Counted from the stretch's first letter, positions 25,460 through 55,687 are shown. The stretch: DNA of 64,000 nucleotides from a candidate division TM6 bacterium UASB124 (GCA_945897315.1 CAMDFF010000004.1:1018-65017), one strand, 5' to 3'. Numbers and translations: made by a program. Notes: generated from the letters alone by a model not told the origin.

Positions 25460-25488
25460 GGGCTTCTAACTATTATCGTGTGATTTAT

Positions 25489-40684: not shown

Positions 40685-41511
40685 AATAATTCTGTTTCTG
40701 TGTCTTTACCGCAGCGACGCGAGACGCCTCGTGCGCTGTTGGTTATAAAAGTTAAAAAATGTTGTACGTGGTGATCACTGCCCCAGCTAGGCTCTGCTGC
40801 GCTTGCTTCAACTATGTTTTGCAGCGGTAATTTTTCTTGATAAAAGAGTTTGGCGATGTGCTTAAGCGCATTAATACTTTCGCGCGAAACACTGTTGCGC
40901 TTGAGTCCAATGAGATTAAGGCCAAAAAACGCTGCAGGCTTACCGCTAAAAATACAGTAGGGTGGCAAGTCTTGGCGTATGCCGCTGAACGGTGCTAGCG
41001 CGGTTAAGGTGCCAACGTGTGCAAATTGGTGTGTTGCACTGCCTGTCATAATCACAGCACGGTCTTCAATGACGGTATGCCCACCAAGGTTGACGTTGGG
41101 GTTGATGACGACGTTGTTGCCGACGACGACATCGTGTGCGATGTGTGCATAATGCATCACGTAGCAATTGTTGCCAATGCGTGTTGATCCTTCGCTGGTA
41201 CGCGCTGCGTGGACAGTAACAAACTCACGAATTTCGCAGTTGCTGCCAATCACAATTGTTCCAAGGCTTTGCACAACACCGACTACTTGGCCAGGAAAGC
41301 CAATCGTGACATGTGGGTGTAGGCGGGTGTTTTCACCGATAGTAGTAGTGCCAATGACGGTACAAAAAGGACCGATCTTGACGCCTTTACCAAGAATGAC
41401 ATTGTCACCGACAACAGCAGTTGGATGGATGTATGTTTCTGTAGAATGAAAGAAGGCTTCCTCAAATGAGGAAGCCTTAGAAATTTTTTCGGAATTGTGA
41501 AAATTGCTCAC
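40681..41511 (-). CDS. lpxA: Acyl-ACP--UDP-N-acetylglucosamine O-acyltransferase
   Basis: Has hexapeptide-repeat beta-helix sequence (IHPTAVVGDNVILGKGVKIGPFCTVIG...) plus the LpxA C-terminal helical domain. I place the start at GTG 41511, with AAGGAA upstream, because the track ORF (to 41628) reads through tRNA-Gln. Confidence 0.8.
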   Translation of the reverse strand: MSNFHNSEKISKASSFEEAFFHSTETYIHPTAVVGDNVILGKGVKIGPFCTVIGTTTIGENTRLHPHVTIGFPGQVVGVVQSLGTIVIGSNCEIREFVTVHAARTSEGSTRIGNNCYVMHYAHIAHDVVVGNNVVINPNVNLGGHTVIEDRAVIMTGSATHQFAHVGTLTALAPFSGIRQDLPPYCIFSGKPAAFFGLNLIGLKRNSVSRESINALKHIAKLFYQEKLPLQNIVEASAAEPSWGSDHHVQHFLTFITNSARGVSRRCGKDTETELL

Positions 41512-41530
41512 AGAAGATATTTCCTTAAGC

Positions 41531-41605
41531 TGGCTGGGGCGGAAGGATTCGAACCTCCGAATGGCAGGACCAAAACCTGCTGCCTTACCACTTGGCGACG
41601 CCCCA
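41531..41605 (-). tRNA. tRNA-Gln (UUG), CCA encoded
   Basis: The minus strand reads TGGGGCG-TC-GCCAAGTGGTAAGGC-A-GCAGG-TTTTGGT-CCTGC-CATTC-GGAGGTTCGAATCCTTC-CGCCCCA-G-CCA. It has the U1:A72 pair and overall similarity seen in E. coli tRNA-Gln. Confidence 0.9.
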
Positions 41606-41642
41606 ATCAATTTCATTATCGATGGCACATATACTATACTAA

Positions 41643-42343: not shown

Positions 42344-45300
42344 ATGGGTGTTTCTATGAAAACATTTTTTATTTTAGTTGTTCTGATCGCGGGGCTTACA
42401 GCATCGAGCGTTGGCTTATTGGCCAGTGCGCGGCGTGCTCCAGTGGCTGCCGTTTCTGCTGCTGACCTTGAGGTACAGTTGCGTTCTTGTCGGAGTGCAG
42501 CAGATGCTCGCGCAATTTTAGTTGATGCTAACAAAATTGTGAGTGCAGGAGGAGCGGATTATGCAGTGGCAAAAAAGGTTTCTCAGTCTGCGAGCGCGGC
42601 AATTGTACGGTTTGAAGCAGAAGAGCGCGAAGCAAAGATAAGGGCTGAGCAGCAAGTTGCTCGAGCACGAGAAGAAGTTGTTCGAGCACGAGAAGAAGCA
42701 GCGGCAGCGCAAGAAGCACGGCGTGCGGGTGAAGCCAAGATTGCGGCGGCGGGAGGTACGGTGGAAGCGCTTAGTGCTGAAGTTGCTCGATTAACGGCTG
42801 ATCTTCAAGCAGGAGCGGTTGTTAATATGAGATTGCAAGCGCATTGTGAGCAGCTGCGTGCTGATGCGGTTCGTGAAGCGGCAGCAAAAGCTACAGAGCT
42901 TGCTGCGCAGGTAGCCAAAAATTCTGGTTTGGCAGAACAAATTCGTGCTGTGCAAAATGAATTACAGCAAGTGCGGTTTCTCATGGCTCAGAAAGAACAA
43001 CAAGGTGCAGCGCTCCTTCAGAAAAACCAACAGCAGCGCGATGTGAATGCGCGGCTTCAACGAGAAATAGCTCAGGTTAGTGCTCAAAATGAAGCAGCAG
43101 AGGCTCGCGTCACAGCGGCAGAAGCAGAAAAAAATCAAGAATGTGCTCGCGTGCAAGCGGAAAAAGATGAAGCAGTGCAGGAAGCAGCGAGACTAGGTTC
43201 AGTTGCTGAAGCGCGGATTGCAGCTATACAGCAAGCCGTAGCTGCAGTGACTGTGAATTTACAAGCGTCACAGGCAGCCCTTGCTGAGCAGGCTGCGAGC
43301 AAAGCTGTGATTGAACGTGAAAATGCTAGAGTCAAAGCCGATCTTACTCGTGTGCGTGGAGCTCAAGATGAAATTGCTGCAGAAGCAGAGGCTACTGTTA
43401 TAGCTGCACAAAGAGAAAAAGATGAAGAATGTGCTCGAGCACGAGAAGAAGCAGCGTTATCACAAGCAGCACTGCGTGCGGGTGAAGCCAGGCTTGCGGA
43501 GGCAGGAGGTACCGTGGAAGCGCTTCGTGCTGAGGTTTCCGCGCAGGTAGCACAAAATTCTCGCTTGGCTGCTGAGATTCAGGCTGTGCAAAATAAATTA
43601 CAGCAAGTGGAGCGTCAAATGGCTCAGAAAGAACAGCAACGTGCAGTGCTGCTTCAGGAAAACCAACAGCAGTGCGATGTGAATGCGCGGCTTCAACAAG
43701 AAATAGGTCAGGTTCAGGCCGAAAATGCAGCAGCGATTGCTCGTGCTCAAGCAGAAAAAGAGAGAGCGCAGCAGGAGGCAGAGGCTCGTGTTGCAGCGGC
43801 AGAAGAAGAACAAGTTCGAGAATGTGCTGCTTTACGAACTGAAAAAGAAAGTGTGACAAGGCAAGCACAGGCTGATGTTGCTGTTGCTCAGGCACGGGCG
43901 CTCCAATTGGAAGAAGGGAACGCTACAGGTCGCCGGAAATTTGAGGACGAGAATCGTATATTGCAGCAGCAAGTTGATGCTCACAATACAGAATTGCAAG
44001 CACTGAGAGGTCAGCTTGCTGCTGAACAGGCACAACAAGCCCAAATTGCTGCAGAAGCAGAGGCTAGTGTTATAGCTGCACAAAGAGAAAAAGATGAAGA
44101 AGTTGTTCGAGCACGAGAAGAAGCAGCGGCAGCGCAAGAAGCACTGCGTGCGGGTGACGCCAGGGTTGCGGCGGGGGTAGATGCAGCGGGAGCGCTTAGT
44201 GCTGAAGTTACTCGATTAACGGCTGATCTTCAAGCAGGAGCGGCTGTGAATGTGAGATTGCAAAAATCTTGTGAGTCGCAGCGTGCTGATGCGGTTCGTG
44301 AAGCGGCAGTAAAAGCTACAGAGCTTGCTGCGCAGGTAGCCCAAAATTCTGGTTTGGCTACTCAGATTCAGGATGTGCAAAATGAATTACAGCAGATGCA
44401 GCGTTACATGGCTGAGAAAGAGAGAGAGCAGCAGGAAGCAGAGCGTCAGGCTGCCACAATCAAAACGCAACATGAGCAAGCAGTTGCGGTAGTGACTGCC
44501 GAGTTGGAAGCATCACAGGCGGCGCTTGCTCAGCAGGCTGCGAGCAAAGCTGTGATTGAAGGTGAAATTGCTAGCGTCAACGCAGAGCTTGATCGTGTGC
44601 GTGCAGCTCAAGATGAAATTACTGTACAAACAGAGGCTCGTGTGCGTGCAGTAGAAGCAGAAAAATCTCAAGAATCTGCTCGCCTTCAACGAGAAATAGC
44701 TCAGGTTCGTGCCGAAAATGCAGCAGCGATTGTTGCTGCTCAAGCGGAAAAAGAGCTAGCAGCGCAGGAAGCAGCGAGTCACATTGCAGAGGTGCAAGCA
44801 CGATGTGAAGAAGCAGTGAGCGCGGTTAGAGCCGAGCTAGAAGCATCACGGGCGGCGCTTGCTGCGCAGCGTCAGAAAAATGGCGAAATTTCTGCACAAT
44901 TAGAAAGTCGAGAGCAGGATATTCAGCGTGCTATGTTCACAATTCAATCACTTGTACATTCACCTCATACAGAAGATCCTGAAAGAACTTGGGATTTTGG
45001 TCAGCTGCAGAAACAAAATACAGAGTTAAAGGCAGAAAATACAGTGCTAAAGCATGCGAAATGTAAAGTGTGTGAGCAGGCAGCTCAGGAAACAGACGGA
45101 GAATGGGAGCGCTTGATGGCAACTAGTCTTGATGATGTAGCGGGCGGTCCCGCGTGTAGTTCTGCTGCTGCGGGGGGAATGTCTTCAATAACTGAAACTG
45201 TGCTTGCGATAGAGCGAGAGAAGGACGATTTAGTACTTCGTTGTGAGGCTTTACGTGAAGATAACCAACGATTAAGACAAGCGTATGAAGAAATGCAAGT

Positions 45301-45493
45301 GCGCAATAGTGCCTTAGAGCAACAATATCTACGTTTGGCAGAAGAGTGTTATAAAATTTCTCAGGAATTAACGATTCTAGATCGTGTGGCAGATGAGGCG
45401 GTAAAACCAGAAGCATTGTTAGCAAAGAAAAGCACATTTGGAGCGTTGCTCGCTAGAGTGCGAGCATTAGGACAAGCGTTTCCTAAGCCGTAA
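42344..45493 (+). CDS. Secreted giant coiled-coil protein with kb-scale internal repeats
   Basis: The signal is MKTFFILVVLIAGLTASSVGLLASA. The 1049-aa protein is dominated by A, E, Q and R heptad-like sequence. Modules such as REEAAAAQEA(L/R)RAGEA and TADLQAGA.VN.RLQ..CE..RADAVREAA.KATELAAQVA.NSGLA recur two or three times. Confidence 0.7.
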   Translation: MGVSMKTFFILVVLIAGLTASSVGLLASARRAPVAAVSAADLEVQLRSCRSAADARAILVDANKIVSAGGADYAVAKKVSQSASAAIVRFEAEEREAKIRAEQQVARAREEVVRAREEAAAAQEARRAGEAKIAAAGGTVEALSAEVARLTADLQAGAVVNMRLQAHCEQLRADAVREAAAKATELAAQVAKNSGLAEQIRAVQNELQQVRFLMAQKEQQGAALLQKNQQQRDVNARLQREIAQVSAQNEAAEARVTAAEAEKNQECARVQAEKDEAVQEAARLGSVAEARIAAIQQAVAAVTVNLQASQAALAEQAASKAVIERENARVKADLTRVRGAQDEIAAEAEATVIAAQREKDEECARAREEAALSQAALRAGEARLAEAGGTVEALRAEVSAQVAQNSRLAAEIQAVQNKLQQVERQMAQKEQQRAVLLQENQQQCDVNARLQQEIGQVQAENAAAIARAQAEKERAQQEAEARVAAAEEEQVRECAALRTEKESVTRQAQADVAVAQARALQLEEGNATGRRKFEDENRILQQQVDAHNTELQALRGQLAAEQAQQAQIAAEAEASVIAAQREKDEEVVRAREEAAAAQEALRAGDARVAAGVDAAGALSAEVTRLTADLQAGAAVNVRLQKSCESQRADAVREAAVKATELAAQVAQNSGLATQIQDVQNELQQMQRYMAEKEREQQEAERQAATIKTQHEQAVAVVTAELEASQAALAQQAASKAVIEGEIASVNAELDRVRAAQDEITVQTEARVRAVEAEKSQESARLQREIAQVRAENAAAIVAAQAEKELAAQEAASHIAEVQARCEEAVSAVRAELEASRAALAAQRQKNGEISAQLESREQDIQRAMFTIQSLVHSPHTEDPERTWDFGQLQKQNTELKAENTVLKHAKCKVCEQAAQETDGEWERLMATSLDDVAGGPACSSAAAGGMSSITETVLAIEREKDDLVLRCEALREDNQRLRQAYEEMQVRNSALEQQYLRLAEECYKISQELTILDRVADEAVKPEALLAKKSTFGALLARVRALGQAFPKP

Positions 45494-45527
45494 GTAGTAC
45501 AACGATTTTATTATAACAAGGCTATCG

Positions 45528-47126
45528 ATGAAGACAAAAAATATAGTTTTTATCTTATTCGCGTGTAGCGCAGCAACACTTGCTGCAGGGAGCGCAACAG
45601 GCCGATCATTTTTCCAGCCACGGTTGCTATGGGCTGAGCAGATGCTGACATTGCATAATGGCACGGAATACGATTGTATGCCTCCAGCGAGCAGCGGCTT
45701 TAGCTTTAATGCTGCTGCGGGCTTTCAAGCGTCAACGCATGACAGCAAATTTGCTAGCTACTTCTTGCCGAATGGCAAAAATGATTTAGTTGTGAAAGGG
45801 GCTAATGCTCCGGGTCCGCGTGATATCTCTGCGATGTGGTTGCAAATTGTTGGTGACAACACTGTTGCTCAGCCTGCAGCGCTTTTTGTGCCAAGTCCAG
45901 ATAAAATTTTTGATTATGAGCGGGCTGCAATGCAATGGATCAATGAATACTCCAGCGTTATTAGCTTGCGACCACGCTTTGAATCATCCGGGGTGCTGAC
46001 ACACTTATCGTACTGTGCAAAGATCAATCGCATGCCGTGCCAGCTGACAGTTGGAGTGCCTGTGCTGCACGTGCGTAATAATATGCAGCTTTGTGAAACT
46101 GATGTGCAAAATGGTTTTACCAAGAGAAGTGATGTTAGTTCATTGCTAATTGAGCCCACAAGCATAGAGCTATTACAAGAAGTTCAACCTCAGTATTCAC
46201 TGTCTGCTATCGAAGCTTTTAATAATCCTAACAAGCGCTTTGCCAAGATCAGCCAGGGAGCTCTTGAAAAACGTGGCCTGGGCGATGTGAGCCTTGACCT
46301 TGCTGTTCGTCCTGTCTCGTCTGTAACCATAGGGCTGCGTGGTGAGTTGCCAACGGCATCTAAGGGGACCGCAGAATATCTTTTTGAGCCGCTGCTGGGT
46401 AGCAATGGTCACGGGACACTGGGAGCCTATGCACAGATGCGAGAAGCGTTGTGGTCTTGTGATCAAGGCACACTGTTTTTGAAAGCACAGCTGCAGTACC
46501 AAGCACAGTTTGCTGGCAACCAGTTGCGTACGTTTGACCTTACTGCTGCTGGCCAGTGGAGCAGATATCTTTTATTAATTGATGCAGCCAATAACCCAAA
46601 AAATGCTGACTCTGGTGTGAATTTTTTAACGCAATCGGCACACGTGAGCGCTCGGCAAGAGGGACTCGGTGGTCTTAGCCTAGAGCTGGAACACAAAGGC
46701 TTTTTGGCATCAGCCGGATACTCATTGTTTGCGCGAGAAAAAGAACGTGTCTCTGTGCGTACGCAGTTGCCGCAAAATCTTTTTATTGTGGGGCAGCTGG
46801 CATCAAATAACAGCGGAAAAAGAAATATTTCTGCTGGTGAAAAAAACAGCTCGATTGGTAATCATATTCCTGTTGGGCACAGTGCGTTTGTTGATCCCTT
46901 AGCCCAAGCTAACGCAGGCCTTGCATTGACCACAGCCGACCTTGATGTGCAGTCTGCAAGCATGCCAAAATATTTTTCGCATACCGTTCACGCGTCGCTT
47001 GGCTACGCTGGCCGAGTGCGCCAGCAAGAGGTGCATTGTAATCTGGGTGGCCGCTATGAAATGTTGCGCTATGGGCATAACTACAATGTGTACAGTCTCT
47101 TTGCGGGGTTAGAAATTAAGATTTAG
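45528..47126 (+). CDS. Putative outer-membrane (beta-barrel) protein
   Basis: Has the signal MKTKNIVFILFACSAATLAAGSA and beta-strand-like alternation throughout. The C-terminal strand is NVYSLFAGLEIKI. I recognise no family. Confidence 0.35.
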   Translation: MKTKNIVFILFACSAATLAAGSATGRSFFQPRLLWAEQMLTLHNGTEYDCMPPASSGFSFNAAAGFQASTHDSKFASYFLPNGKNDLVVKGANAPGPRDISAMWLQIVGDNTVAQPAALFVPSPDKIFDYERAAMQWINEYSSVISLRPRFESSGVLTHLSYCAKINRMPCQLTVGVPVLHVRNNMQLCETDVQNGFTKRSDVSSLLIEPTSIELLQEVQPQYSLSAIEAFNNPNKRFAKISQGALEKRGLGDVSLDLAVRPVSSVTIGLRGELPTASKGTAEYLFEPLLGSNGHGTLGAYAQMREALWSCDQGTLFLKAQLQYQAQFAGNQLRTFDLTAAGQWSRYLLLIDAANNPKNADSGVNFLTQSAHVSARQEGLGGLSLELEHKGFLASAGYSLFAREKERVSVRTQLPQNLFIVGQLASNNSGKRNISAGEKNSSIGNHIPVGHSAFVDPLAQANAGLALTTADLDVQSASMPKYFSHTVHASLGYAGRVRQQEVHCNLGGRYEMLRYGHNYNVYSLFAGLEIKI

Positions 47127-47321: not shown

Positions 47322-47354
47322 AAAAAAAATGGGGACGGCGCGAGCGCCATCCCC
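47322..47354 (-). terminator. Rho-independent terminator of fibre gene A (GGGGACGGCG hairpin family)
   Basis: The minus strand reads ggggatggcgc-tc-gcgccgtcccc followed by T8. Confidence 0.75.
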
Positions 47355-47383
47355 AGAATGTGTGGTGGTGTGAGAAGTCCTGC

Positions 47384-49741
47384 TTACTTATTATTCATCG
47401 CTTTGATTTGCTCGCGTAGTGCAGCAAGCTCTTGCTCAAGTGAGCCAACGCGTTTGTCTTGACGTTGATACTCATTCAAGAGTAAAGCAGGGAGCAAGTG
47501 GTAGCGAACGGTTTCAGCTTGATGCTCTTTGTTAACAATAACTAGATTTGGCATGATCTCTTGTACTTCTTCTGCAATCAAACCGTATTGCGTAACGTGT
47601 GAGTCATCGCCTTTATAAACAAAGCTTACGGGACGTAGCTTGAGCAGATCGGCAGATATGTTGCCAAGGTCTTTAATGTCGTCTTTGTAACGAGCAGATG
47701 ATGCAAGGGTGCCAAGGTTGCCGTTAGAGTCAATTAATACTGCTGAAGCAGTTTCAACATCGGATGTTGTTTTGTTGTAGATACCGGCAATATAACATGC
47801 TGCTTGTGAAGTACCAATACGCGTTGTGCTGCTTTCACTGCTGGTTGCTGCGTTGCTATTGATGTAAATATTGCTCGACCCTGAGGTAAGGGTACCACCG
47901 GCGCCATATCCAAGGCAAATGTTGCTGTTGCCTGATCTGAGCGATGGCCCTGCTTCTGCGCCAAGAATGACGTTGTTATCGCCAGAGGTAATTGCATCGC
48001 CAGCATTGAGTCCAACCAGTGTGTTATCATTTGCGCTGCCATTAAAATTGGCGCCTGCGCCTTTACCAAAGACAACGTTACTGTTGACATCAGCAGCGAG
48101 AACTCTTCCTGTAACTGAAACATCAGCAGAAAAATTTCCGCCACCAGGTACGAGTATGCGGCCTAAGGTAGAAGTACCAGTAACGTTGAGATCGCCATTG
48201 ATATATGCATCATCATTCATGGTTGTTACGCCAGCGATGTAGGCTGTACCTGCAATAGACAAGTTACCATCGAGTTCACCATAGGCATGGGTTGCAATAT
48301 CGGCATAAACATTGAGGTCAGATTCCATCGTTGTTTCACCAGAGATGAGCACAACGCCTGATGAGTGCAAGCTGCCAACATTGGTTGTGCCTGTGATGGT
48401 AGTATCGCCTGTAATGTTTGTGTCACCGTTAATATTTGCGTGGCCAGCAATTTGTGCGCCACCAGCTGTGACGGTGATGCCTGCTCCAAAGGTACTGCTG
48501 CCGGTAACGCAGAGGTTGCCACCAATATTTGTATCATTTATTACGGTAAGGCCTGTTCCTGCGCCAGAGAGTGTTGCGTCGCCAGAAATATTCATGACGC
48601 CTGATGAGTGCAAGCTGCCAACATTGGTTGTGCCTGTAATATTTGTATCGCCGGTAATATTTGCATGGCCAGCAATGTGTGCACCACCGGTAGTAATTGT
48701 GATGCCGTTACCAAATGTGGCAGATTGTGAAACGTCTAAGTTTCCTGTGATAGAAGCATTGTCATCGATGGTTGTGTACCCAGCGATGTAGGCTGTGCCA
48801 GCAATGGATAAGTTGCCATTGAGTTCGCCGTGAGCATAGGTAGCAATGTTGCCATACACATCAAGGTCGTTGTCCATGGTTGTTACGCCAGAAATAAGCA
48901 CAACGCCTGATGAGTGCAAGCTGCCAACATGGACGGTACCTGTGGTGCTAAAGTCACCAGTAACTGATGAATCACCAGTGATATGTGCCCCGCCGGTAGT
49001 CACCGTTAAGCCACCATCACCACCGATTAAAGCAGATCCTGTTGTGGTGAAATTTCCATTAAGTTGCTGGTTGCCATTGATTGTTGTATTGCCATTGATG
49101 GTTGTTTCGCCCGTGAGCGTAGGAGAGCCGAGTAGGTTTCCTGTAACGTTTCCGATGAGATCTGCTGTGATGATGTGTGCTGCAAAGTCGCCATTAAGGT
49201 CGCGTCTAACAATGAGCCCAGGAGAATTTGTTGGAACACCACTGATCGCAGTGAGTGCTGAAGCTGTAAGATTGCCAACACCAACGGTATTTGCGGCAAT
49301 TTTATCGCCAGTGACAGATCCTGCGGCGATTTTTACGTTAGTTACTGCTCCGTCTGCAAGGCGTATTGTATCGATTGCTTGAGCAATAACATTGTAACGA
49401 CGAATAGCATCAACGCCGATAAGTGTGTTGACGAGTGGAAGTAAGGTACGTGTTGTTTCGTCTACAGCATCAATAAATTCGCTTGCAGGGATATCACGAT
49501 GCTTATTATAAATGCGTTCGAGTACGTTTCTAAATGCTTCAGGCAAGGCGATGTTGTGGTTGTGAATAAGCTGTGCAACTTCAATGAGCGTTACAGCGTC
49601 AGCATCGCTGAGTCTATGCGTGTCTTCTGCCCGTTGTTCTCTAGCTTCAGGCGTAAGCTGTAGGGCTGTAGGTAGAACTTGATGCGCCGAAAGCGAGAGC
49701 ATCAACGTAAGTTTTAATAAGTGGTTTATACTCGTAGACAT
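47384..49741 (-). CDS. Secreted tail-fibre-like beta-helix repeat protein with C-terminal S74-type intramolecular chaperone (autoproteolytic) domain - fibre A
   Basis: The signal-like N-terminus is LLKLTLMLSLSAHQ. It has a fibre-type IADGAVTNVKIAAGSVTGDKIA..VRRDLNGDFAAHIITADLIGNVTGN, then G/T/N-rich repeats of about 100 aa. The C-terminal region reads SSARYKDDIKDLG..LRPVSFVYK..QYGLIAEEVQEIMPNLV..VRYHLLPALLLNE, followed by a terminal coiled coil. Confidence 0.8.
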   Translation of the reverse strand: MSTSINHLLKLTLMLSLSAHQVLPTALQLTPEAREQRAEDTHRLSDADAVTLIEVAQLIHNHNIALPEAFRNVLERIYNKHRDIPASEFIDAVDETTRTLLPLVNTLIGVDAIRRYNVIAQAIDTIRLADGAVTNVKIAAGSVTGDKIAANTVGVGNLTASALTAISGVPTNSPGLIVRRDLNGDFAAHIITADLIGNVTGNLLGSPTLTGETTINGNTTINGNQQLNGNFTTTGSALIGGDGGLTVTTGGAHITGDSSVTGDFSTTGTVHVGSLHSSGVVLISGVTTMDNDLDVYGNIATYAHGELNGNLSIAGTAYIAGYTTIDDNASITGNLDVSQSATFGNGITITTGGAHIAGHANITGDTNITGTTNVGSLHSSGVMNISGDATLSGAGTGLTVINDTNIGGNLCVTGSSTFGAGITVTAGGAQIAGHANINGDTNITGDTTITGTTNVGSLHSSGVVLISGETTMESDLNVYADIATHAYGELDGNLSIAGTAYIAGVTTMNDDAYINGDLNVTGTSTLGRILVPGGGNFSADVSVTGRVLAADVNSNVVFGKGAGANFNGSANDNTLVGLNAGDAITSGDNNVILGAEAGPSLRSGNSNICLGYGAGGTLTSGSSNIYINSNAATSSESSTTRIGTSQAACYIAGIYNKTTSDVETASAVLIDSNGNLGTLASSARYKDDIKDLGNISADLLKLRPVSFVYKGDDSHVTQYGLIAEEVQEIMPNLVIVNKEHQAETVRYHLLPALLLNEYQRQDKRVGSLEQELAALREQIKAMNNK

Positions 49742-49833
49742 TTTGTCTCCTTTTTATAACAACGATCGTTTTTGTTTATTGTGTGATAACGCGTCAATTT
49801 TAAAAATTTGCTTGGTAGAAATGCAAGTGCTGT

Positions 49834-49863
49834 AAAAAAAAACCGGGGATGGTAAGTCCCCGG
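49834..49863 (-). terminator. Rho-independent terminator of fibre gene B
   Basis: The minus strand reads ccgggga-cttacca-tccccgg followed by T9. Confidence 0.75.
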
Positions 49864-49878
49864 TAAGTAATCTATGAA

Positions 49879-51801
49879 TTAAGCGGTTGGCTCTGGTGCA
49901 ATACCCAAAGCAGCTTCGATTTTATCTAGTCGGCTTAGAATCGAATCAAATGTTGTTGCTTGTTGTTCGACCATACAAAGACGCTTCTCTTGGGCAAGAA
50001 CTTCATTGATGAGCAACGGTGTAAACAGCTCATAGCGAATTGCATCTGGTCTGTTTTCTTTGTCAAAAACAACAGTGTGAGGTAGAAGATCAGCTACTTC
50101 TTCAGCAACAAGGCCAAATTGTAAACGTTTTTGAGGATCTTGTTTGTACGTAAATGTAACAGGGCGTAACTGTTTAAATGCATCAGCTTGGCTGCCTACA
50201 TCTTTAATATCGTCTTTATAGCGACGGGATGATGCAAAACCACTGACGGTGCCTAATTCGCCTCCAGGAGTAATTGCGACGTTTGCGAAATCTATACCTA
50301 AAAAATGTCCAAAACCACCAATCATGTTTCCTGCAACTCCTGAAAAATTAACGCTACCAGGGACAGAAAGATTTGCGATATGCAAAGTGCCATCAACAGT
50401 TAGATCATTGCGAAATGTAGAATTACCGTAAATATCCGATGATCCAACGGGTAGATATAAATTACCTGTTGGTAGGGTTAGGTTGCCAGCAATGTAGCAT
50501 GCTGTGTGGGTACCCGTGGTGCCTAGGCGAGTTGTTTGTGATTCTTGGTGAGCGCCAACGTTGCCAATATAAATAGTATTGTTTTCGCTACCTGCCAGTG
50601 ACGATCCTGACTGGCACCCGAGGGCAATATTGCTTGCACCGGTGCGAAGATTTTGTAGCGCTCGTGACCCAACAGCTGTATTGTCATAACCCGTTGTTCT
50701 AATGAGCGCTTGGAATCCTACAGCGGCATTGTTGTTGCCAGTAAGATTGGCAGCAAGAGAGCCTTGGCCAATGGCGGTATTTTGTTGTCCTGCGGTGTTG
50801 CCACTGAGTGCAGTTGTGCCAATAGCTGTATTGTTTATCCCCGTGGTATTGCTGAACATCGATTTGTAACCAATAGCGGTATTATTGCTGCCTGAACTAT
50901 TGGAGTAAAGATTTTTAAACCCGATAGCAACGTTGCTGACCCCACTGTTGTTGTTGTACATTGCTGCGTAGCCAAGAGCCGTATTCTCATGGCCAGTATT
51001 GTTGTTGTACATTGTTGTGTAGCCGACAGCAGTATTATTGTTACCTGTCGAGGTGCTGGCCATTGCTTGTGAGCCAAAAGCGGTATTGCTGTCTCCAGCA
51101 TTGTTAGCAAGAGCACTGTGTCCCATCGCAGTATTGTCGTTGCCTGAGGTATTGTTTAAGAGTGCTTGGTATCCGGTAGCGCTGTTGCGATCGCCAGATG
51201 TATTGCTACTGAGTGCTTGTACGCCAGAAGCCGTATTTTCGTCTCCAATGGTATTGCTGTTGAGTGCCTGATAGCCAAGCCCCGTATTTGCTTTGCCAAT
51301 AGTAGTAGATTGCCCTGTGCTAGCGCCAATAAAGGTATTGTTTGCCGCGCTTGGCAGGAATGATTCAGCCGTATATTCATTGCCAAAAGCAGCATTGTTA
51401 TTATTGTCAACAAACTCATTTACCGTTAAGGAATACTTGAATTTTTGTTGGGCTGGTACATGGTACAAACTCAAAGCTTGCAGGGATTTGACAAGCGCAC
51501 TTTTTTGCTCGCTGTCTGGCAATGGTGCAATGATACCGTGCGCATCTTTAACGCCTGCTACTAAATCTTCTGCCCTGATTGTTCGGTGTTCAATAAGCGC
51601 TTCAAATATGTGTTTAAGAGGTGGTGGTAACTCCATCTGTTTGGCATCACAAATGTGTGCCACTGCCATGAGTGTTGCAATATCGGCATCGTCTAAAACA
51701 GCCGATGATTCATCACGTGTTTGCATTGCATCTGGTGTGGCACTTATGGGGACGCATGCAAAAAGCATGGTGACAAATAAATAATATAGTGTTGGAAACA
51801 T
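49879..51801 (-). CDS. Secreted tail-fibre-like repeat protein with C-terminal S74-type intramolecular chaperone domain - fibre B
   Basis: The signal-like N-terminus is LFVTMLFACVPISA. It has 17-aa NTAxGxxALxxNTxGxx repeats (51-bp DNA period). The C-terminal region reads SSRRYKDDIKDVGSQADAFKQLRPVTFTYKQDPQKRLQFGLVAEEVADLLPHTVV. AGGAG lies upstream. Confidence 0.8.
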   Translation of the reverse strand: MFPTLYYLFVTMLFACVPISATPDAMQTRDESSAVLDDADIATLMAVAHICDAKQMELPPPLKHIFEALIEHRTIRAEDLVAGVKDAHGIIAPLPDSEQKSALVKSLQALSLYHVPAQQKFKYSLTVNEFVDNNNNAAFGNEYTAESFLPSAANNTFIGASTGQSTTIGKANTGLGYQALNSNTIGDENTASGVQALSSNTSGDRNSATGYQALLNNTSGNDNTAMGHSALANNAGDSNTAFGSQAMASTSTGNNNTAVGYTTMYNNNTGHENTALGYAAMYNNNSGVSNVAIGFKNLYSNSSGSNNTAIGYKSMFSNTTGINNTAIGTTALSGNTAGQQNTAIGQGSLAANLTGNNNAAVGFQALIRTTGYDNTAVGSRALQNLRTGASNIALGCQSGSSLAGSENNTIYIGNVGAHQESQTTRLGTTGTHTACYIAGNLTLPTGNLYLPVGSSDIYGNSTFRNDLTVDGTLHIANLSVPGSVNFSGVAGNMIGGFGHFLGIDFANVAITPGGELGTVSGFASSRRYKDDIKDVGSQADAFKQLRPVTFTYKQDPQKRLQFGLVAEEVADLLPHTVVFDKENRPDAIRYELFTPLLINEVLAQEKRLCMVEQQATTFDSILSRLDKIEAALGIAPEPTA

Positions 51802-51848
51802 AACGCTCCTGGTTTTAGAAATTTAAACATGGTTTAAGCAGTGGCTCA

Positions 51849-51878
51849 ATTATAGAAAGGGGGGCTTGAGCAACACAA
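51849..51878 (-). promoter_or_regulatory. Putative sigma70-type promoter of fibre gene B (TTGTGT-N18-TATAAT)
   Basis: The minus strand reads ttgtgt-tgctcaagcccccctttc-tataat. The same architecture is conserved upstream of fibre gene C. Confidence 0.45.
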
Positions 51879-52066
51879 GATTTCATCAAAAGTAAAAAAT
51901 ATGACTTTCTTTGTGTACTTGGGAATGGTTATTTGCAGGGCGTATTGCATGAATATGGCTATGATATCGATCTGGTAAGTGAATGCCGCTAGCGGGCTGA
52001 GAATGGGTATTGTTGAAGAAGAGTGGGCACCCGTTGGTACCCCCTCGGTAAAAAAGCATATAAAAG

Positions 52067-55000
52067 TTATTTGCTTGCCAGCGCTTTAATATGTGCACGC
52101 ATATCAGCAAGCTCTTGTTGAAATGCATTCATACGACTGCTCATTGCTTCAAGAGTATCTGCTTTTGTTTCAACCATGCAAAGACGCTTCTCTTGGGCAA
52201 GTACTTCATTGATAAGCAAGGGTGTAAACAGCTCATAGCGAATTGCATCTGGTCTTTTTTCTTTGTCAAAAACAACGGTGTGAGGTAGAAGATCAGCTAC
52301 TTCTTCAGCAACAAGGCCAAATTGTAAACGTTTTTGAGGATCTTGTTTGTACGTAAATGTAACAGGGCGTAACTGTTTAAATGCGTCAGCTTGGCTGCCT
52401 ACATCTTTAATATCGTCTTTATAACGACGGGATGATGGTAGGAAGCCACTGACGGTGCCTAATTCGCCTCCAGGAGTAATTGCGACGTTTGCGAAATCTA
52501 TCCCTAAAACATGTCCAAAGTCACCAATTGTGTTCCCTGCAACTCCTGAAAAATTAACGCTACCAGGGACAGAAAGATTTGCGATATTCAAAGTTCCATC
52601 AACAGTTAGATCATTGCGAAATGTAGAATTACCGTAAATATCCGATGATCCAACGGGTAGATATAAATTACCTGTTGGTAGGGTGAGGTTGCCAGCAATG
52701 TAGCATGCTGTGTGGGTACCCGTGGTGCCTAGGCGAGTTGTCTTATTTTCGCCATGCGCACCTAAATTTCCAATGTAAATATTATTTGATTCGCTCTTTG
52801 CCAGTGATGTGCCGGCGTTGTAACCAAGTGCAATATTGTTTGACCCGCTGCCCAGGTTTTGTAGCGACTGTGAACCATGAGCGGTATTATATTCTCCCGT
52901 ATTGTGGTAAAGCGCGTTGTGTCCAACAGCAGTGTTTGCTCCGCCGGTATTATTATAAAGTGCGCTATCACCAACGGCAACGTTATTGGATCCGCTATTA
53001 TTTGAATATAATGCCTGGTAGCCGAGAGCGGTATTGGGTTTTCCTGAGGTATTATTGTATAGAGCTTGCGATCCTACGCCGGTATTATTGTCTGCAGTAT
53101 TGTTGTAGAGCGCTTCATATCCGACGCCAGTATTGTCTGATGCTGATGGATTGATGAAGAGGGCGTTAGTTCCAATAGCAACGTTTTGAGAAGCGCTGCC
53201 ACTTTCACCCTCTGCATTACTGTTATAAAGAGCATAGTTGCCAATTGCAATGTTGTCAGATCCTGCTGTGTTGGAGTAAAGGGCTTGATATCCCAGAGCA
53301 TTATTGTTGTAGCCGGTAGTGTTACTCATGAGCGCTTGGCTGCCAACAGCAGTGTTGTCATCTGATTCATTGACGAGGAGTGCATAAAATCCAAGAGCGG
53401 TATTGTTGCTGCCAGAGGCATTATCACGTAATGCTTGGTTGCCAAGCGCGGTGTTGTTTTCTCCTGTGGTATGATGCCCTGCCCAGAAGCCAATAGCAGT
53501 ATTAGCGGTACCGGTTTGGTTGGCTGAAAGAGCTTGGTACCCTACAGCAACGCCGCTACCAGCTGTTGTATTGCTGTAAAGGGTGCTTGAGCCAATCGCA
53601 ATGTTTTGTGATCCTGCTGGTCCACCTTCTGTGCGATTCTTTGATTTAGGGCTCATGAAGTAAGAGCTATTTGAATAGAGTGCACTATTTCCGATGGCAA
53701 TGTTGTCAGAGCCAGTGTCATTATTAAATAGAGCTTTGTAGCCAAGGGCATTATTTGCTGATCCAGTGGTATTTCCTTCTAGCGCTTGGTACCCAACAGC
53801 AACGTTAGGGCCGCCAGAGGTGTTATTATAGAGGGCATGGCTACCAATCGCCGTATTTTGCGAAATGGCATTGTTATAGAGCGCGTTGTCTCCAATAGCG
53901 ACGTTAAAATTACCAGGGTTTGTTCCGCCTGCAAGGGCATTGTCACCGATAGCTGTGTTGCTGGTGCCCATTGTTGCGCTGTTCATACTTGCAGTTCCAA
54001 CAGCAGTATTGTCTGAACAGTTACCTTCTTCATCTGCCCCGAGATTTTGAAGAGAATAATAACCGACGGCAACGTTGCCAGTAGCATCTGCATTTGTAAG
54101 TGCTTTATGGCCAAGGGCAATGTTTTGCTTGCCCGATCTGTTTATATTAAGGGTCTCTATGCCAATCGCAATGTTGTGTTCACCATCTGTTACATTGAGC
54201 AAGGCATTGTCGCCGATCGCAATATTTTCGCTGGTGGTGGCGCCTAATCCAATCGCGTTGTTTCCGATAGCAATATTTTTGCTGCCAAAGGTGTTTGCGT
54301 TAAGAGCTTGGTAGCCAACAGCAACGTTATGTTCACCGCTTGTGTTTTTTTGAAGAGCTCGTGCACCTGTTGCTGTATTGTATGGAGCTGTATTTGTTTC
54401 AAGCGCGCGGTAGCCAACAGCAGTATTTTCTGGCGAGCGGCGGTTGGTGCCAAGGGCATTGAATCCAACAGCAGTATTGTGCGTACCGGTTGAGTTGTAG
54501 CTGAGAGCAGCGGCACCAACGGCTGTGTTTTCATGGCTGGTAGTTCTGATGAGCGCTTGAAATCCGATTGCTGCGTTGTTACTGCCGGTAAGGTTAGCTG
54601 CAAGAGAACCTTGACCGATAGCAGTATTTTGTTTGCCTGAGGTGTTGCCACTTAAAGCAGTTGTGCCAATTGCAGTATTGTTGATACCGGAGGTGTTGCT
54701 GAACATCGATTTGTAACCAATAGCGGTATTATTACTGCCTGAACTATTGGAGTAAAGATTTTTATACCCGATAGCAACGTTGCTGGCCCCGCTGTCATTG
54801 CTGTACAGTGCAGCATAGCCAACGGCAGTGTTTTCATGGCCAGTATTGTTGTTGCACATCGTTGTGTAGCCGACAGCAGTATTATTGTTACCTGCCGAGG
54901 TACTGGCCATTGCTTGTGAGCCAAAAGCGGTATTGCTGTCTCCCGCATTGTTAGCAAGAGCACTGTGTCCCATGGCGGTATTGTCATTGCCAGAGATATT

Positions 55001-55687
55001 TGCAAACAGTGCTTGATACCCCACAGCACTGTTGCGATCACCAGATGTATTGCTGCAGAGGGCTTGTACGCCAAGAGCACTATTTTCATCGCCAATAGTA
55101 TTGTAAAAGCTGGCTTCGCTACCAAGAGCAACGTTGCGACCCCCAGTAGCGTTGTTATTTAGCGTGTGATAACCGACGGCAGTATTATCGTTTCCGATAG
55201 TGTCGTATTTACCAGCGCTAACGCCAATAAAAGTATTGTGTACAGCGCTTGGTAGTAGTGCTGCAGCGGTCGTCTCGTCACCAAAAACAGTATTGCCATT
55301 ATCGTCAACAAACGCTGTAAGAATAGGATCTCCTCCTCTGCTATCGACTAAATTTTTCGGTTTGCAGAGTTTGATCTGTTCTTCGAGAGATGTGATAAGT
55401 ATGTTTTTTTCTTGGCATTCAGGCAGCAGTGTAACGATTTTTTGTGCGTCCTTTAATCCATTTTCAAGGTCTTTGATTGCAATTGTTCGATGTTCAAAAA
55501 TATCGGCTAGAATGTTTTTTAGTCTGTCTGGTAAGTCAATGTTCTGAGTATCACAAATGTTTGCTACTGTCATAAGTGGTGCAATATCGATTGCGTCAGC
55601 AAGTAGCTCTTCCTGGTTTTTTACTTGTGCGTTGTGCGTTGATGCGATAAGCAGTGTAAACAATAAGTAAAATTGTATACGAGTCAT
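52067..55687 (-). CDS. Secreted tail-fibre-like repeat protein (about 50 x 17-aa units) with C-terminal S74-type intramolecular chaperone domain - fibre C
   Basis: The signal-like N-terminus is FYLLFTLLIASTHNA, followed by a very long array of NTAxGxxALxxNTxGxx units. Its C-terminal 190 or so aa are almost identical to fibre B, including SSRRYKDDIKDVGSQADAFKQLRPVTFTYK. Confidence 0.8.
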   Translation of the reverse strand: MTRIQFYLLFTLLIASTHNAQVKNQEELLADAIDIAPLMTVANICDTQNIDLPDRLKNILADIFEHRTIAIKDLENGLKDAQKIVTLLPECQEKNILITSLEEQIKLCKPKNLVDSRGGDPILTAFVDDNGNTVFGDETTAAALLPSAVHNTFIGVSAGKYDTIGNDNTAVGYHTLNNNATGGRNVALGSEASFYNTIGDENSALGVQALCSNTSGDRNSAVGYQALFANISGNDNTAMGHSALANNAGDSNTAFGSQAMASTSAGNNNTAVGYTTMCNNNTGHENTAVGYAALYSNDSGASNVAIGYKNLYSNSSGSNNTAIGYKSMFSNTSGINNTAIGTTALSGNTSGKQNTAIGQGSLAANLTGSNNAAIGFQALIRTTSHENTAVGAAALSYNSTGTHNTAVGFNALGTNRRSPENTAVGYRALETNTAPYNTATGARALQKNTSGEHNVAVGYQALNANTFGSKNIAIGNNAIGLGATTSENIAIGDNALLNVTDGEHNIAIGIETLNINRSGKQNIALGHKALTNADATGNVAVGYYSLQNLGADEEGNCSDNTAVGTASMNSATMGTSNTAIGDNALAGGTNPGNFNVAIGDNALYNNAISQNTAIGSHALYNNTSGGPNVAVGYQALEGNTTGSANNALGYKALFNNDTGSDNIAIGNSALYSNSSYFMSPKSKNRTEGGPAGSQNIAIGSSTLYSNTTAGSGVAVGYQALSANQTGTANTAIGFWAGHHTTGENNTALGNQALRDNASGSNNTALGFYALLVNESDDNTAVGSQALMSNTTGYNNNALGYQALYSNTAGSDNIAIGNYALYNSNAEGESGSASQNVAIGTNALFINPSASDNTGVGYEALYNNTADNNTGVGSQALYNNTSGKPNTALGYQALYSNNSGSNNVAVGDSALYNNTGGANTAVGHNALYHNTGEYNTAHGSQSLQNLGSGSNNIALGYNAGTSLAKSESNNIYIGNLGAHGENKTTRLGTTGTHTACYIAGNLTLPTGNLYLPVGSSDIYGNSTFRNDLTVDGTLNIANLSVPGSVNFSGVAGNTIGDFGHVLGIDFANVAITPGGELGTVSGFLPSSRRYKDDIKDVGSQADAFKQLRPVTFTYKQDPQKRLQFGLVAEEVADLLPHTVVFDKEKRPDAIRYELFTPLLINEVLAQEKRLCMVETKADTLEAMSSRMNAFQQELADMRAHIKALASK

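What the first reader, a model, noticed from the sequence alone, without database searches (positions are those of the whole stretch)
47384..55687. Chromosomal set of Sec-signal-bearing, phage-tail-fibre-like proteins with S74 autoproteolytic chaperone caps and no phage around them
Three consecutive minus-strand genes (785, 640 and 1206 aa) share one architecture, as does a fourth at 61662-63017. Each begins with a hydrophobic signal-peptide-like N-terminus. Each then has hundreds of residues of fibre or beta-helix repeats: 17-aa NTAxGxxALxxNTxGxx units (51-bp DNA period) in B, C and D, and G/T/N-rich units of about 100 aa in A. Fibre A also carries the tail-fibre-style stretch VRRDLNGDFAAHIITADLIGNVTGN. 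Each ends with SS(A/R)RYK(D/N)DI..LRPV.F.YK....(Q)(F/Y)GL(I/V)AEEV...P.LV...(I/V)RY..L.P.LLNE plus a terminal coiled coil. That C-terminal block matches the intramolecular chaperone / peptidase S74 domain of endosialidase tailspikes and the T5 L-shaped tail fibre, which uses a Ser-Lys dyad, drives trimer folding and then cleaves itself off. Phage fibres have no signal peptides and sit among tail and baseplate genes. Here I find no capsid, tail, baseplate, terminase or integrase gene anywhere in the 64 kb, and three of the four genes (A, B and C) have a recognisable terminator or promoter. My inference is that these are domesticated, cell-surface, trimeric host-recognition fibres of a host-dependent bacterium. 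How they cross the outer membrane is unexplained, since no YadA-type anchor or autotransporter barrel is present.
Basis: partly seen in the sequence, partly recalled or inferred. Interest (0 to 1): 0.85.

Follow-up and report, generated by a model that had tools for sequence, protein, structure and literature searches.

The report
Secreted phage-like fibres in Dependentiae
A parasitic Dependentiae (TM6) bacterium carries at least five chromosomal genes for export-signal-bearing proteins built like phage tail fibres with a self-cleaving folding cap; they are probably surface adhesins of a kind first shown in the predator Bdellovibrio in 2024, so this is a new example, not a new principle.

Summary
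The four ORFs exist as described. All four hit Pfam Peptidase_S74 above threshold, and the Ser-x4-Lys dyad is aligned and invariant. B, C and D have 17-aa repeats (z 9-20). All four have hydrophobic N-termini behind Shine-Dalgarno-supported starts. No phage gene was found in the 64 kb. A fifth such gene lies just beyond the window.

The contig is from a Dependentiae (TM6) bacterium: LepA is 94% identical to a Dependentiae protein, and the window also encodes ankyrin, RING and UCH proteins.

The architecture is not unprecedented. Bdellovibrio MAT fibres (Caulton 2024) are chromosomal and signal-peptide-bearing. Thirteen of the 21 end in S74, and sampled members were seen on the predator surface. 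The repeat-plus-S74 body is also very widespread, with at least 590 loci in species-representative genomes, most with signal-like N-termini. What is specific here is a roughly 80-aa four-helix N-terminal module in A, B and C, found almost nowhere else and unlike the beta-rich MAT N-domain.

Best reading: Sec-exported trimeric surface fibres, folded and then released by the S74 cap, and tethered by the N-module. Host recognition, surface display and the route across the outer membrane are inferred, not shown.

Verdict: new member of a known kind, of moderate interest.

The parts
47384..49741 (-). Fibre A, 785 aa. Leader residues 1-22; helical N-module about 36-130; G/T/N-rich beta-helix-like body about 131-660 (6-aa period, 75-100-aa units); S74 cap 681-785 with S681/K686.
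   Evidence: ORF; Pfam S74 E 4e-14; PHROGs tail families; periodicity; AGGAG before the ATG; dyad; N-module homology to B (E 1e-9).
47330..47355 (-). Terminator-like hairpin (11 pairs plus T-run) 29 nt after the stop of A.
49879..51801 (-). Fibre B, 640 aa. Leader 1-21; four-helix N-module 35-113; 14 x 17-aa NTAxG repeats about 130-410; tip 411-523; S74 cap 524-640 with S524/K529.
   Evidence: AlphaFold2 model: helices 38-53, 60-70, 77-91, 98-113 at pLDDT 71-90; a strand every 17 residues at pLDDT 85-95; S74 region 75-86.
49842..49864 (-). Terminator-like hairpin 15 nt after the stop of B.
52067..55687 (-). Fibre C, 1206 aa. Leader 1-20; N-module 25-112; 46 x 17-aa repeats about 130-975; tip 976-1084; S74 cap 1085-1206 with S1085/K1090. 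Recent paralogue of B: protein identity is N 37%, first stalk 75%, tip 90%, S74 99%.
61662..63017 (-). Fibre D, 451 aa. Leader 1-24; helical but unrelated N-region 25-100; 5-8 x 17-aa repeats 101-250; tip 251-332; S74 cap 333-451 with S333/K338. No terminator between D and the pump genes downstream.
   Evidence: AlphaFold2 model. Foldseek top hits are ICA domains 7dc3, 3gud, 3gw6, 4uw8.
55953..61344 (-). Genes between C and D on the same strand: HlyD-family adaptor (60433-61344), OEP outer-membrane channel (59051-60436), MacB-type permease (57891-59057), ABC ATPase (57208-57894) and a signal-peptide-bearing ankyrin protein (55953-57191). A terminator lies at 55914-55886. This may be one transcription unit with D; any link to fibre export is speculative.
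   Evidence: Pfam; terminators; similar fibre-then-MacB-pump adjacency in L036 and L057.
42344..47126 (+). Neighbouring pair convergent with A: a signal-peptide-bearing 1049-aa Ala/Glu/Gln-rich repeat protein and the 532-aa 'omp532'. omp532 has a signal peptide and no Pfam or PHROG hit, and its family is seen only in Dependentiae-like contigs. Listed as context, not as a proven part.
   Evidence: A homologue lies next to the fibre gene in L064.

Best explanation
A, B, C, D and a fifth gene just outside the window are a paralogous family of Sec-exported, phage-tail-fibre-derived fibres of a Dependentiae (TM6) bacterium. They are the same kind of thing as the S74 subgroup of Bdellovibrio MAT adhesins.

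Proposed mechanism:
1. The N-terminal leader sends each chain through Sec into the periplasm. This is inferred from sequence features and from conservation of the leader in orthologues.
2. The C-terminal S74 intramolecular chaperone, with its terminal coiled coil, brings three chains into register and templates folding of the tip and the repeat stalk. This is inferred from homology.
3. The Ser-Lys dyad (Ser at the first S of SSxRYK, Lys five residues on) then cuts the 105-122-residue cap off and exposes the tip. The dyad is shown to be intact and aligned; cleavage is inferred.
4. The short N-terminal module, a four-helix unit in A, B and C, takes the place of the virion-attachment domain of phage fibres and tethers the fibre to an envelope component. 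This is an inference by position and by analogy with MAT.
5. The exposed tips bind a surface ligand, most plausibly on the protist host, and so promote attachment and uptake. This is the weakest step.

B and C carry nearly the same tip on stalks of 14 and 46 repeats, so they would present one specificity at two distances. How the fibres pass the outer membrane is unknown here, as it is for MAT.
For: S74 is above the Pfam cut-off in all four proteins and in the fifth. S, R and K of SSxRxK are invariant in 32 homologues. They align to solved phage fibres and MyRF: profile against PDB gives 8hqz E 4e-8, 6f45 E 1.7e-7 and 7dc3 E 8.5e-5. Foldseek top hits are ICA domains.

Phage homology of the body comes from PHROGs and 105 phage records. 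The N-terminal ~95 residues are never covered by the phage matches.

Leaders plus Shine-Dalgarno motifs are, and A's leader is conserved in P0140 and P0141. SecDF is in the window. The envelope is diderm: LpxA, LpxI, heptosyltransferase and OEP.

There are no phage genes in 64 kb. A and B are followed by strong terminator-like hairpins and C by a weak one, so they look like separate transcription units.

Dependentiae identity rests.

Precedent: Bdellovibrio MAT fibres have a signal peptide, 13 of 21 end in S74, self-cleave, and sampled members locate to the predator surface or its vesicle (PMC10769870).

The same logic recurs in other small genomes. L015 has four and L051 three tandem genes with a shared leader and N-module, a collagen repeat and S74.

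57 of 77 S74 ORFs in 80 bacterial loci have signal-like N-termini, against 215 of 679 other ORFs.
Against: There is no experimental evidence of export, trimerisation, cleavage or surface display. The AlphaFold2 models are monomers, and the tips (B 429-528, D 265-318) have pLDDT below 50. The signal-peptide call is a home-made heuristic that also flags 32% of control ORFs, and signal peptides are very common in this phylum.

The family is abundant in free-living phyla, so 'host recognition' does not follow from the architecture. No outer-membrane anchor or dedicated transporter was identified. Unlike MAT, the N-module is the least conserved part between B and C (37%) while their tips are 90% identical. 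That does not fit a simple 'constant anchor, variable tip' scheme. A related paralogue, P0003, has lost the dyad, so cleavage is not obligatory in the lineage.
Confidence: 0.62

Rival explanations
1. They are receptor-binding fibres of a phage-derived particle (prophage, tailocin or extracellular contractile injection system) whose structural genes lie elsewhere in the genome. The fibre genes are simply encoded apart from it.
For: There is strong homology to virion fibre and tailspike families. eCIS tail fibres with Peptidase_S74 are described (PMC12923769, listed). Only one 66.7-kb contig of the genome is available.
Against: All of them have hydrophobic leaders, and no phage homologue covers the N-terminus. 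At least five genes are spread over 19 kb between housekeeping and pump genes, and A and B are followed by strong terminator-like hairpins of their own. No sheath, tube, baseplate, capsid, terminase or integrase gene was found in 64 kb. Particles assemble in the cytoplasm, which is incompatible with Sec export. The same leader-bearing architecture is proven non-viral in Bdellovibrio.
Confidence: 0.06
2. They are exported tailspike-like enzymes, not adhesins. They would be trimeric beta-helix glycan depolymerases or modifying enzymes acting on the host glycocalyx, or on the bacterium's own surface polysaccharide. S74 would serve only as the folding cap, as in endosialidases.
For: S74 was first defined on endosialidases. 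Foldseek of the B and D models lists parallel beta-helix lyases, epimerases and tailspikes after the ICA hits. A has a hexapeptide-like 6-aa period and a weak YdcK-family hit.
Against: Those fold hits are weak (E at least 0.04, TM-score at most 0.23). No catalytic family was detected by Pfam or NCBIfam. The 17-aa NTAxG stalk is a simple repeat with no insertions that could form an active-site cleft. Length variation of 5 to 46 repeats suits a spacer, not an enzyme.
Confidence: 0.12
3. They are general-purpose surface fibres with no role in host recognition. Candidate roles are cell-cell cohesion, surface adhesion or an envelope spacer layer, as is presumably the case for the many homologues in free-living soil and water bacteria.
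For: There are at least 590 loci in species-representative genomes of free-living phyla, most with signal-like leaders. B and C share one tip. A syntenic Dependentiae relative lacks the cluster at this position, so it is dispensable there.
Against: Dependentiae have reduced genomes and an obligate host-associated life style (PMC6561590). Keeping at least five large fibre genes, and further arrays in relatives, argues for a role tied to that life style. The only tested relatives, in Bdellovibrio, act at the predator-prey interface.
Confidence: 0.2

Closest known systems
Bdellovibrio bacteriovorus MAT (mosaic adhesive trimer) fibres, S74 subgroup, e.g. Bd3182 (Caulton et al. 2024, PMC10769870)
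   Same: Both are multigene chromosomal families in a bacterium that depends on another cell. Both have an N-terminal signal peptide, a small N-terminal module, a long fibre and a C-terminal S74 chaperone-protease with a Ser-x4-Lys motif. Both are phage-tail-fibre-like with no phage around them. In both cases the anchor and the outer-membrane route are unknown.
   Different: MAT proteins share a conserved beta-rich N-domain of about 130 aa. A, B and C instead have a four-helix module of about 80 aa found in only a handful of proteins among 1.84 billion, and D has yet another N-region. The motif is SSxRYK here and SDxxxK in MAT. The stalk is a 17-aa NTAxG repeat. The presumed target is a eukaryotic host, not bacterial prey. 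Nothing here has been tested experimentally.
Phage fibres and spikes with the intramolecular chaperone: K1F/endoNF endosialidase (3GW6), T5 L-shaped tail fibre pb1 (4UW8, 8HQZ), GA-1 neck appendage (3GUD)
   Same: They share the C-terminal S74/ICA domain, with the nucleophile Ser and general-base Lys aligned and the same predicted fold. The expected mechanism is trimer nucleation followed by self-cleavage.
   Different: Phage proteins have no signal peptide, carry a virion-attachment N-terminus and sit among structural genes. None of that applies here.
Phage fibres with the same NTAxG repeat body: Pelagibacter phage HTVC112P tail fibre, Bacillus phage SPO1 gp2.52 tailspike, Roseobacter phages CRP-1 and CRP-7; PHROGs 6002, 4636 and 23837
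   Same: Repeat stalk, tip and S74 align over about 70% of D at 26-33% identity. PHROG E-values go down to 7.5e-177 for C.
   Different: The phage matches never cover the N-terminal ~95 residues. Bacterial homologues are closer (34-53% identity).
Trimeric autotransporter adhesins (type Vc; YadA, AtaA)
   Same: Both have a signal peptide and a trimeric repetitive stalk with YadA-head-like short repeats. Several homologues are auto-annotated 'trimeric autotransporter adhesin'.
   Different: There is no YadA_anchor beta-barrel and no Hep_Hag hit. The polarity is reversed: in these proteins the C-terminus is a removable cap, not the membrane anchor.
Myelin regulatory factor MYRF (eukaryotic ICA domain, 7DC3)
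   Same: It is the best structural match of the cap (Foldseek probability 1.00) and also a sequence-profile hit (E 8.5e-5).
   Different: MYRF is a membrane-bound transcription factor that uses the domain to release itself. There is no functional relation to a fibre.

Membership tests
Peptidase S74 / intramolecular chaperone auto-processing (ICA) domain | Sequence match to PF13884 above the gathering score | tested here: met
   A 53.1, B 46.5, C 45.6 and D 51.1 bits against a cut-off of 22, covering profile positions 1-57 of 58. The fifth gene scores 55.7 bits.
Peptidase S74 / intramolecular chaperone auto-processing (ICA) domain | Catalytic Ser and Lys five residues apart, aligned with the dyad of characterised members | tested here: met
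   The motif SS(A/R)RYK occurs once per protein. S, R and K are invariant in 32 sequences. They align to SDRRIK of 6f45 and SGIEYK of 8hqz.
Peptidase S74 / intramolecular chaperone auto-processing (ICA) domain | ICA fold followed by a C-terminal helix or coiled coil | tested here: met
   AlphaFold2 pLDDT is 87-97 for D 340-451 and 75-86 for B 530-633, with terminal helices 399-450 and 594-633. The top Foldseek hits are 7dc3, 3gud, 3gw6 and 4uw8, although E-values are weak for the full-length query.
Peptidase S74 / intramolecular chaperone auto-processing (ICA) domain | Trimerisation-dependent self-cleavage at the Ser | not testable with these tools
   This needs expression of wild type and Ser-to-Ala protein. 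Only monomer models could be made.
Bdellovibrio MAT fibre family | N-terminal signal peptide | tested here: inconclusive
   The hydrophobic leaders, SD-supported starts and orthologue conservation fit. No trained predictor was available, and my heuristic flags 32% of control ORFs.
Bdellovibrio MAT fibre family | Conserved beta-rich N-terminal domain of about 130 aa directly after the signal peptide (PMC10769870) | tested here: not met
   B residues 35-113 are predicted as four helices at pLDDT 71-90. D's N-region is helical at low confidence. A profile of the A/B/C module finds only 5 proteins in 1.84 billion. No MAT N-domain sequence was compared directly.
Bdellovibrio MAT fibre family | Long fibre ending in an S74 cap or another adhesive tip; multigene family | tested here: met
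   At least five paralogues lie on one contig, all with S74. Stalks have 5 to 46 repeats.
Bdellovibrio MAT fibre family | Location on the cell surface and a role at the interface with the target cell | not testable with these tools
   This needs microscopy or proteomics of the organism, which is known only from metagenomes.
Trimeric autotransporter adhesin (type Vc) | C-terminal YadA-type beta-barrel anchor; Hep_Hag or HIM head motifs | tested here: not met
   No YadA_anchor or Hep_Hag hit at E below 0.01 in any of the four proteins. The C-terminus is the S74 cap.
Virion tail fibre or tailspike of a (pro)phage, tailocin or eCIS | Encoded with tail, baseplate or capsid genes; cytoplasmic, without an export signal | tested here: not met
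   There are no phage structural, packaging or integration families among the other ORFs of at least 150 aa in the window. Leaders are present. Only 2.7 kb of the contig lies outside the window, and it holds a PDDEXK_9 gene and a fifth fibre gene. The rest of the genome is unseen.

The most novel reading that the evidence does not exclude
S74-capped, Sec-exported fibres may be a pan-bacterial class of surface organelle built from a phage-fibre body plus interchangeable, lineage-specific N-terminal tether modules. At least three unrelated modules are now visible: the Bdellovibrio MAT domain, the four-helix module here, and a third shared by L015, L051 and L064. In Dependentiae they would be the long-sought host-attachment apparatus that starts infection of protists. 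Their passage across the outer membrane might use the MacB-type tripartite pump found directly downstream of a fibre gene here and in two unrelated phyla.
Probability: 0.15. Interest if true: 0.7.

Novelty: new member of a known kind. Interest (0 to 1): 0.42.

Why it matters
Dependentiae are a widespread, almost uncultured phylum of protist parasites, and how they recognise and enter hosts is unknown. A family of exported, phage-derived fibres gives concrete candidates to test. The tip domains could be expressed and used as host-binding probes.

More broadly, the survey shows that the 'phage tail fibre domain' proteins annotated in many bacterial genomes mostly carry export signals and sit in chromosomal context. 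The Bdellovibrio MAT discovery is therefore probably one instance of a much larger and largely unstudied class of bacterial surface fibres. These fibres have exchangeable N-terminal anchors, and their route to the surface is unsolved.

Tried and rejected
1. DNA-level tandem repeats. Tandem Repeats Finder finds no 51-bp array in B, C or D. The periodicity exists only at protein level.

2. omp532 as the fibres' outer-membrane partner. It lies convergent with A, and a homologue lies next to the fibre gene in L064. In three other Dependentiae contigs, however, the family sits in an operon with a large protein that has no Pfam hit (680, 833 or 1110 aa) and no S74 gene adjacent. It is therefore more likely the partner of the 1049-aa repeat protein upstream, and I dropped it as an explanation.

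3. MacB-type pump as exporter. A fibre gene directly precedes an adaptor/ABC/MacB cluster in the window, in L036 (Binataceae) and in L057 (Gammaproteobacteria). That is 3 of about 80 loci in phyla rich in such pumps. The ABC genes next to the fibres in L052 and L067 look, from their N-terminal sequences, like other ABC types (not checked against Pfam). I keep this only as a lead.

4. Finding the N-module elsewhere. An exhaustive profile search gave only B itself, two A-like fragments and two unrelated repeat proteins that match a helical hairpin motif. There was no similarity to the N-regions of fibres in the 80 fetched loci.

5. Identifying the genome in the GTDB representative set. The scan returned no self-hit. 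The taxon was obtained from named homologues instead.

7. Literature. One paper in the library holds both 'Dependentiae' and 'tail fiber', a subsurface-aquifer virome study that I did not open. The Chromulinavorax paper does not mention fibres or adhesins.

Full report
**What is there.** The four minus-strand ORFs exist exactly as described: A 47384-49741 (785 aa), B 49879-51801 (640 aa), C 52067-55687 (1206 aa) and D 61662-63017 (451 aa). Each matches Pfam Peptidase_S74 (PF13884) over the whole profile, at 45.6-53.1 bits against a gathering score of 22. PHROGs places the bodies in phage tail fibre, tailspike and virion-structural families. E-values reach 7.5e-177 for C, and A hits a different set of families. 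NCBIfam gives nothing useful.

**The cap.** The motif SS(A/R)RYK occurs once per protein: A S681/K686, B S524/K529, C S1085/K1090 and D S333/K338.
- In a 32-sequence alignment with distant homologues the Ser, the Arg and the Lys are invariant.
- A profile of the C-terminal region finds three solved structures: a T5-type L-shaped tail fibre (8hqz, E 4e-8), a long-tail-fibre distal subunit (6f45, E 1.7e-7) and the MyRF ICA domain (7dc3, E 8.5e-5). The Ser and Lys sit on the SDRRIK / SGIEYK motifs.
- AlphaFold2 models of D and B give the cap high confidence (pLDDT 87-97 and 75-86) and a long terminal helix.
- The best Foldseek matches in the PDB are the ICA domains 7dc3, 3gud, 3gw6 and 4uw8. E-values are weak because a full-length monomer was the query.

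**The stalks.** B, C and D have a 17-residue period (31-39% self-identity at lag 17, z 9.4-20.3 against shuffles), with 14, 46 and 5 copies of N[TV]AxG. In the models a short strand recurs every 17 residues at pLDDT 85-95. The repeat is too diverged to register at DNA level. A is different. It has a 6-residue period (z 8.7) and longer units of 75-100 residues. Its VRRDLNGDF... stretch matches structural proteins of T4-like cyanophages (55.6% over 45 aa, E 2e-4).

B and C are recent paralogues with a mosaic pattern. Protein identity is 37% in the N-terminal 120 residues, 75% in the first stalk, 90% in the tip, 99% in S74 and 45% in the terminal coil. They would carry nearly the same tip on stalks of very different length.

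**The N-termini.** Each ATG is preceded at the right distance by AGGAG (A, B, D) or GGGA (C). It is followed by a hydrophobic core, and no other membrane-spanning-like segment was found. A's leader is conserved in two orthologous fragments from other samples (MTSLRPLATLALMLSLSAYQVSA...). No trained signal-peptide predictor was available, so export is a well-founded prediction and not a result.

Behind the leader, A, B and C share a module of about 80 residues (A-B E 1e-9; B-C 41% identity). AlphaFold2 predicts it as four helices at pLDDT 71-90. D's N-region is helical at low confidence and not detectably related. A profile of the A/B/C module, run without a word index against 1.84 billion representative proteins, finds five proteins. 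These are B, two A-like fragments, and two unrelated repeat proteins that match only a helical hairpin motif. Phage homologues never cover this region.

**The surroundings and the organism.** The remaining ORFs of at least 150 aa encode ordinary bacterial functions:
- ArgRS, LepA, SecDF, PlsY, an ATP-dependent DNA ligase, HldE, a Mur ligase and FtsW;
- LpxI, LpxA, a heptosyltransferase, and M16 and M48 peptidases;
- eukaryote-like ankyrin, RING and UCH proteins.

The ORFs without a Pfam hit have no informative PHROGs hit either; the only match is a weak SbcC-like nuclease family (E 1.4e-4). Between C and D lie an HlyD-type adaptor, an OEP channel, a MacB-type permease, an ABC ATPase and a leader-bearing ankyrin protein.

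The window is 64 kb of a 66.7-kb metagenome contig. The remaining 2.7 kb holds the rest of a PDDEXK_9 gene and the 3' end of a fifth S74 fibre gene of the A type.

LepA is 94% identical to a protein named 'Candidatus Dependentiae bacterium' and 74-78% identical to Babeliales and TM6 proteins. The neighbouring omp532 family is named only from Dependentiae.

A syntenic Dependentiae contig has ABCF-LpxI-GFO-LpxA ... omp-PDDEXK_9 with no fibre cluster between the last two genes. The 16-kb block from A to D is therefore variable within the lineage. Another contig from that sample carries a tandem array of 1285-, 753- and at least 469-aa genes. The 753-aa member, P0003, aligns end to end with B, including the N-module (35% identity, E 9e-125). 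It has lost the dyad (ASSRRYKDD becomes IFARRHEDD) and no longer hits PF13884.

**How common is this?** Very common.
- A word-index search with D returns more than 1600 significant proteins. Many are on contigs of hundreds of kilobases, and they are labelled 'tail fiber domain-containing protein', 'trimeric autotransporter adhesin' or 'chaperone of endosialidase'.
They fall in Acidobacteriota, Gammaproteobacteria, Binatia, Thermoanaerobaculia, Verrucomicrobia, Planctomycetota, Myxococcota, TM6 and unnamed 1.2-1.5-Mb chromosomes.
- With a crude leader heuristic, 57 of 77 S74 ORFs in the 80 fetched loci have a signal-like N-terminus, against 215 of 679 other ORFs.
- Two small chromosomes carry tandem arrays. 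L015 has four genes and L051 three, each with a shared leader and N-module followed by collagen repeats and S74. Their N-module is shared with L064 (E 1e-11 to 1e-38) but not with the window.

**What is known.** The library holds a direct precedent. Bdellovibrio bacteriovorus has 21 'MAT' fibres, each with a signal peptide and a conserved beta-rich N-domain of about 130 aa. Thirteen end in an S74 domain with an SDxxxK motif. Bd3182 self-cleaves at S782, and S782A does not. Sampled members locate to the predator surface or to the vesicle it deposits in prey, and mutants were examined for prey entry. The envelope partner of the N-domain is unknown, and the authors note related proteins in other bacteria (PMC10769870). 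I found no paper linking such proteins to Dependentiae.

**Interpretation.** The most economical reading is that A-E are exported, trimeric, S74-matured surface fibres of the MAT kind. They are attached through a lineage-specific N-module and present a tip to the outside. In an obligate protist parasite the obvious target is the host surface.

- Shown: the domain architecture, the intact dyad, the leaders, the chromosomal context and the taxon.
- Inferred: export, trimerisation, cleavage, tethering, surface exposure and target.

They are not MAT family members in the strict sense, because the defining N-domain is replaced. They are not autotransporters, because they have no anchor. They are unlikely to be virion parts.

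The wide occurrence in free-living bacteria and the abundance of signal peptides in Dependentiae (44% of CDS in Chromulinavorax) weaken the specific 'host recognition' claim. The B/C pattern of divergent N-module and shared tip does not match the simple constant-anchor, variable-tip model.

**Leads on the outer-membrane question.** Neither lead settled it. The omp532 gene next to A is more probably paired with the large repeat protein upstream. A MacB-type pump follows a fibre gene here and in two unrelated genomes, but that is three of about eighty loci.

**Verdict.** This is a new member of a known kind with a distinctive N-terminal module, and of moderate interest.

Noticed in passing
L001 2-715 (equivalent to window coordinates 65077-65790, minus strand, beyond the window end): A fifth S74 fibre gene is cut by the contig end. 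It has an A-like G/T/A-rich body and SSRRYKDDI (Pfam S74 E 6.3e-15). The family on this contig therefore has at least five members within 19 kb.
   Followed up: partly
window 42344-47126 (+): This is an operon-like pair: a 1049-aa signal-peptide-bearing Ala/Glu/Gln-rich internally repeated protein and the 532-aa 'omp532', which has no Pfam or PHROG hit. Only 13 homologues were found in 5.8 billion proteins, and the named ones are Dependentiae. In relatives the omp gene is always next to a large protein with no Pfam hit (680, 833 or 1110 aa). It may be a lineage-specific outer-membrane protein plus surface-protein pair.
   Followed up: partly
window 55953-63017 (-); L036 10205-16115; L057 9989-15944: An S74 fibre gene directly precedes a MacB-type tripartite pump cluster (HlyD adaptor, ABC ATPase, FtsX/MacB_PCD permease; OEP in the window only). 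This is seen in three unrelated phyla: Dependentiae, Binataceae and Gammaproteobacteria. It could be chance or an export link.
   Followed up: partly
window 55953-57191 (-), repeats 56127-56486: This ankyrin protein has a signal peptide and a Cys-rich CxxC...CxxC stretch (residues ~95-140). It also has 3.5 copies of a 102-bp DNA tandem repeat (86% matches) that encodes the ankyrin units. It is the last gene before the strong terminator at 55914-55886.
   Followed up: no
window 16513-17415 (-), 21059-22651 (-), 2019-3257 (-): These are eukaryote-like genes: a RING finger (zf-RING_2), a ubiquitin C-terminal hydrolase (UCH) and a second ankyrin protein. They are typical effector repertoire of an intracellular bacterium.
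   Followed up: no
P0003 (753 aa; sample ERZ1426820, tandem array of 1285-, 753- and at least 469-aa genes): This relative's B-like fibre keeps the N-module, the repeats and the S74-like fold region. It has lost the catalytic Ser and Lys (IFARRHEDD) and falls below Pfam detection. It is a natural, presumably non-cleaving variant.
   Followed up: partly
L015 228-14923; L051 5893-16159; L064 8993-11494: Small (1.2-1.4 Mb, GC 0.37) 'uncultured bacterium' chromosomes carry tandem arrays of 3-4 fibre genes. Each has a shared leader, a second type of N-terminal module (also in L064), collagen triple-helix repeats and S74. L012 and L070 hold S74 proteins of 3255-3964 aa.
   Followed up: partly
window 41531-41605 (-): tRNA-Gln overlaps the 5' end of the LpxA ORF as listed (40681-41628, GTG start), so the real LpxA start is probably further downstream. 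G+C rises from about 0.42 to 0.46-0.50 between 40 and 50 kb, where the repeat-protein and fibre genes begin.
   Followed up: no
syntenic contig of P0127 versus window 35454-64000: A related Dependentiae contig has the same gene order (ABCF, LpxI, GFO, LpxA ... omp, PDDEXK_9) but lacks the A-to-D block between omp and PDDEXK_9. The 16-kb fibre and pump block is a variable region.
   Followed up: partly
window 25480-27252 (+): An ATP-dependent DNA ligase with the full N, adenylation and C domains is present. This is uncommon as a bacterial chromosomal ligase.
   Followed up: no
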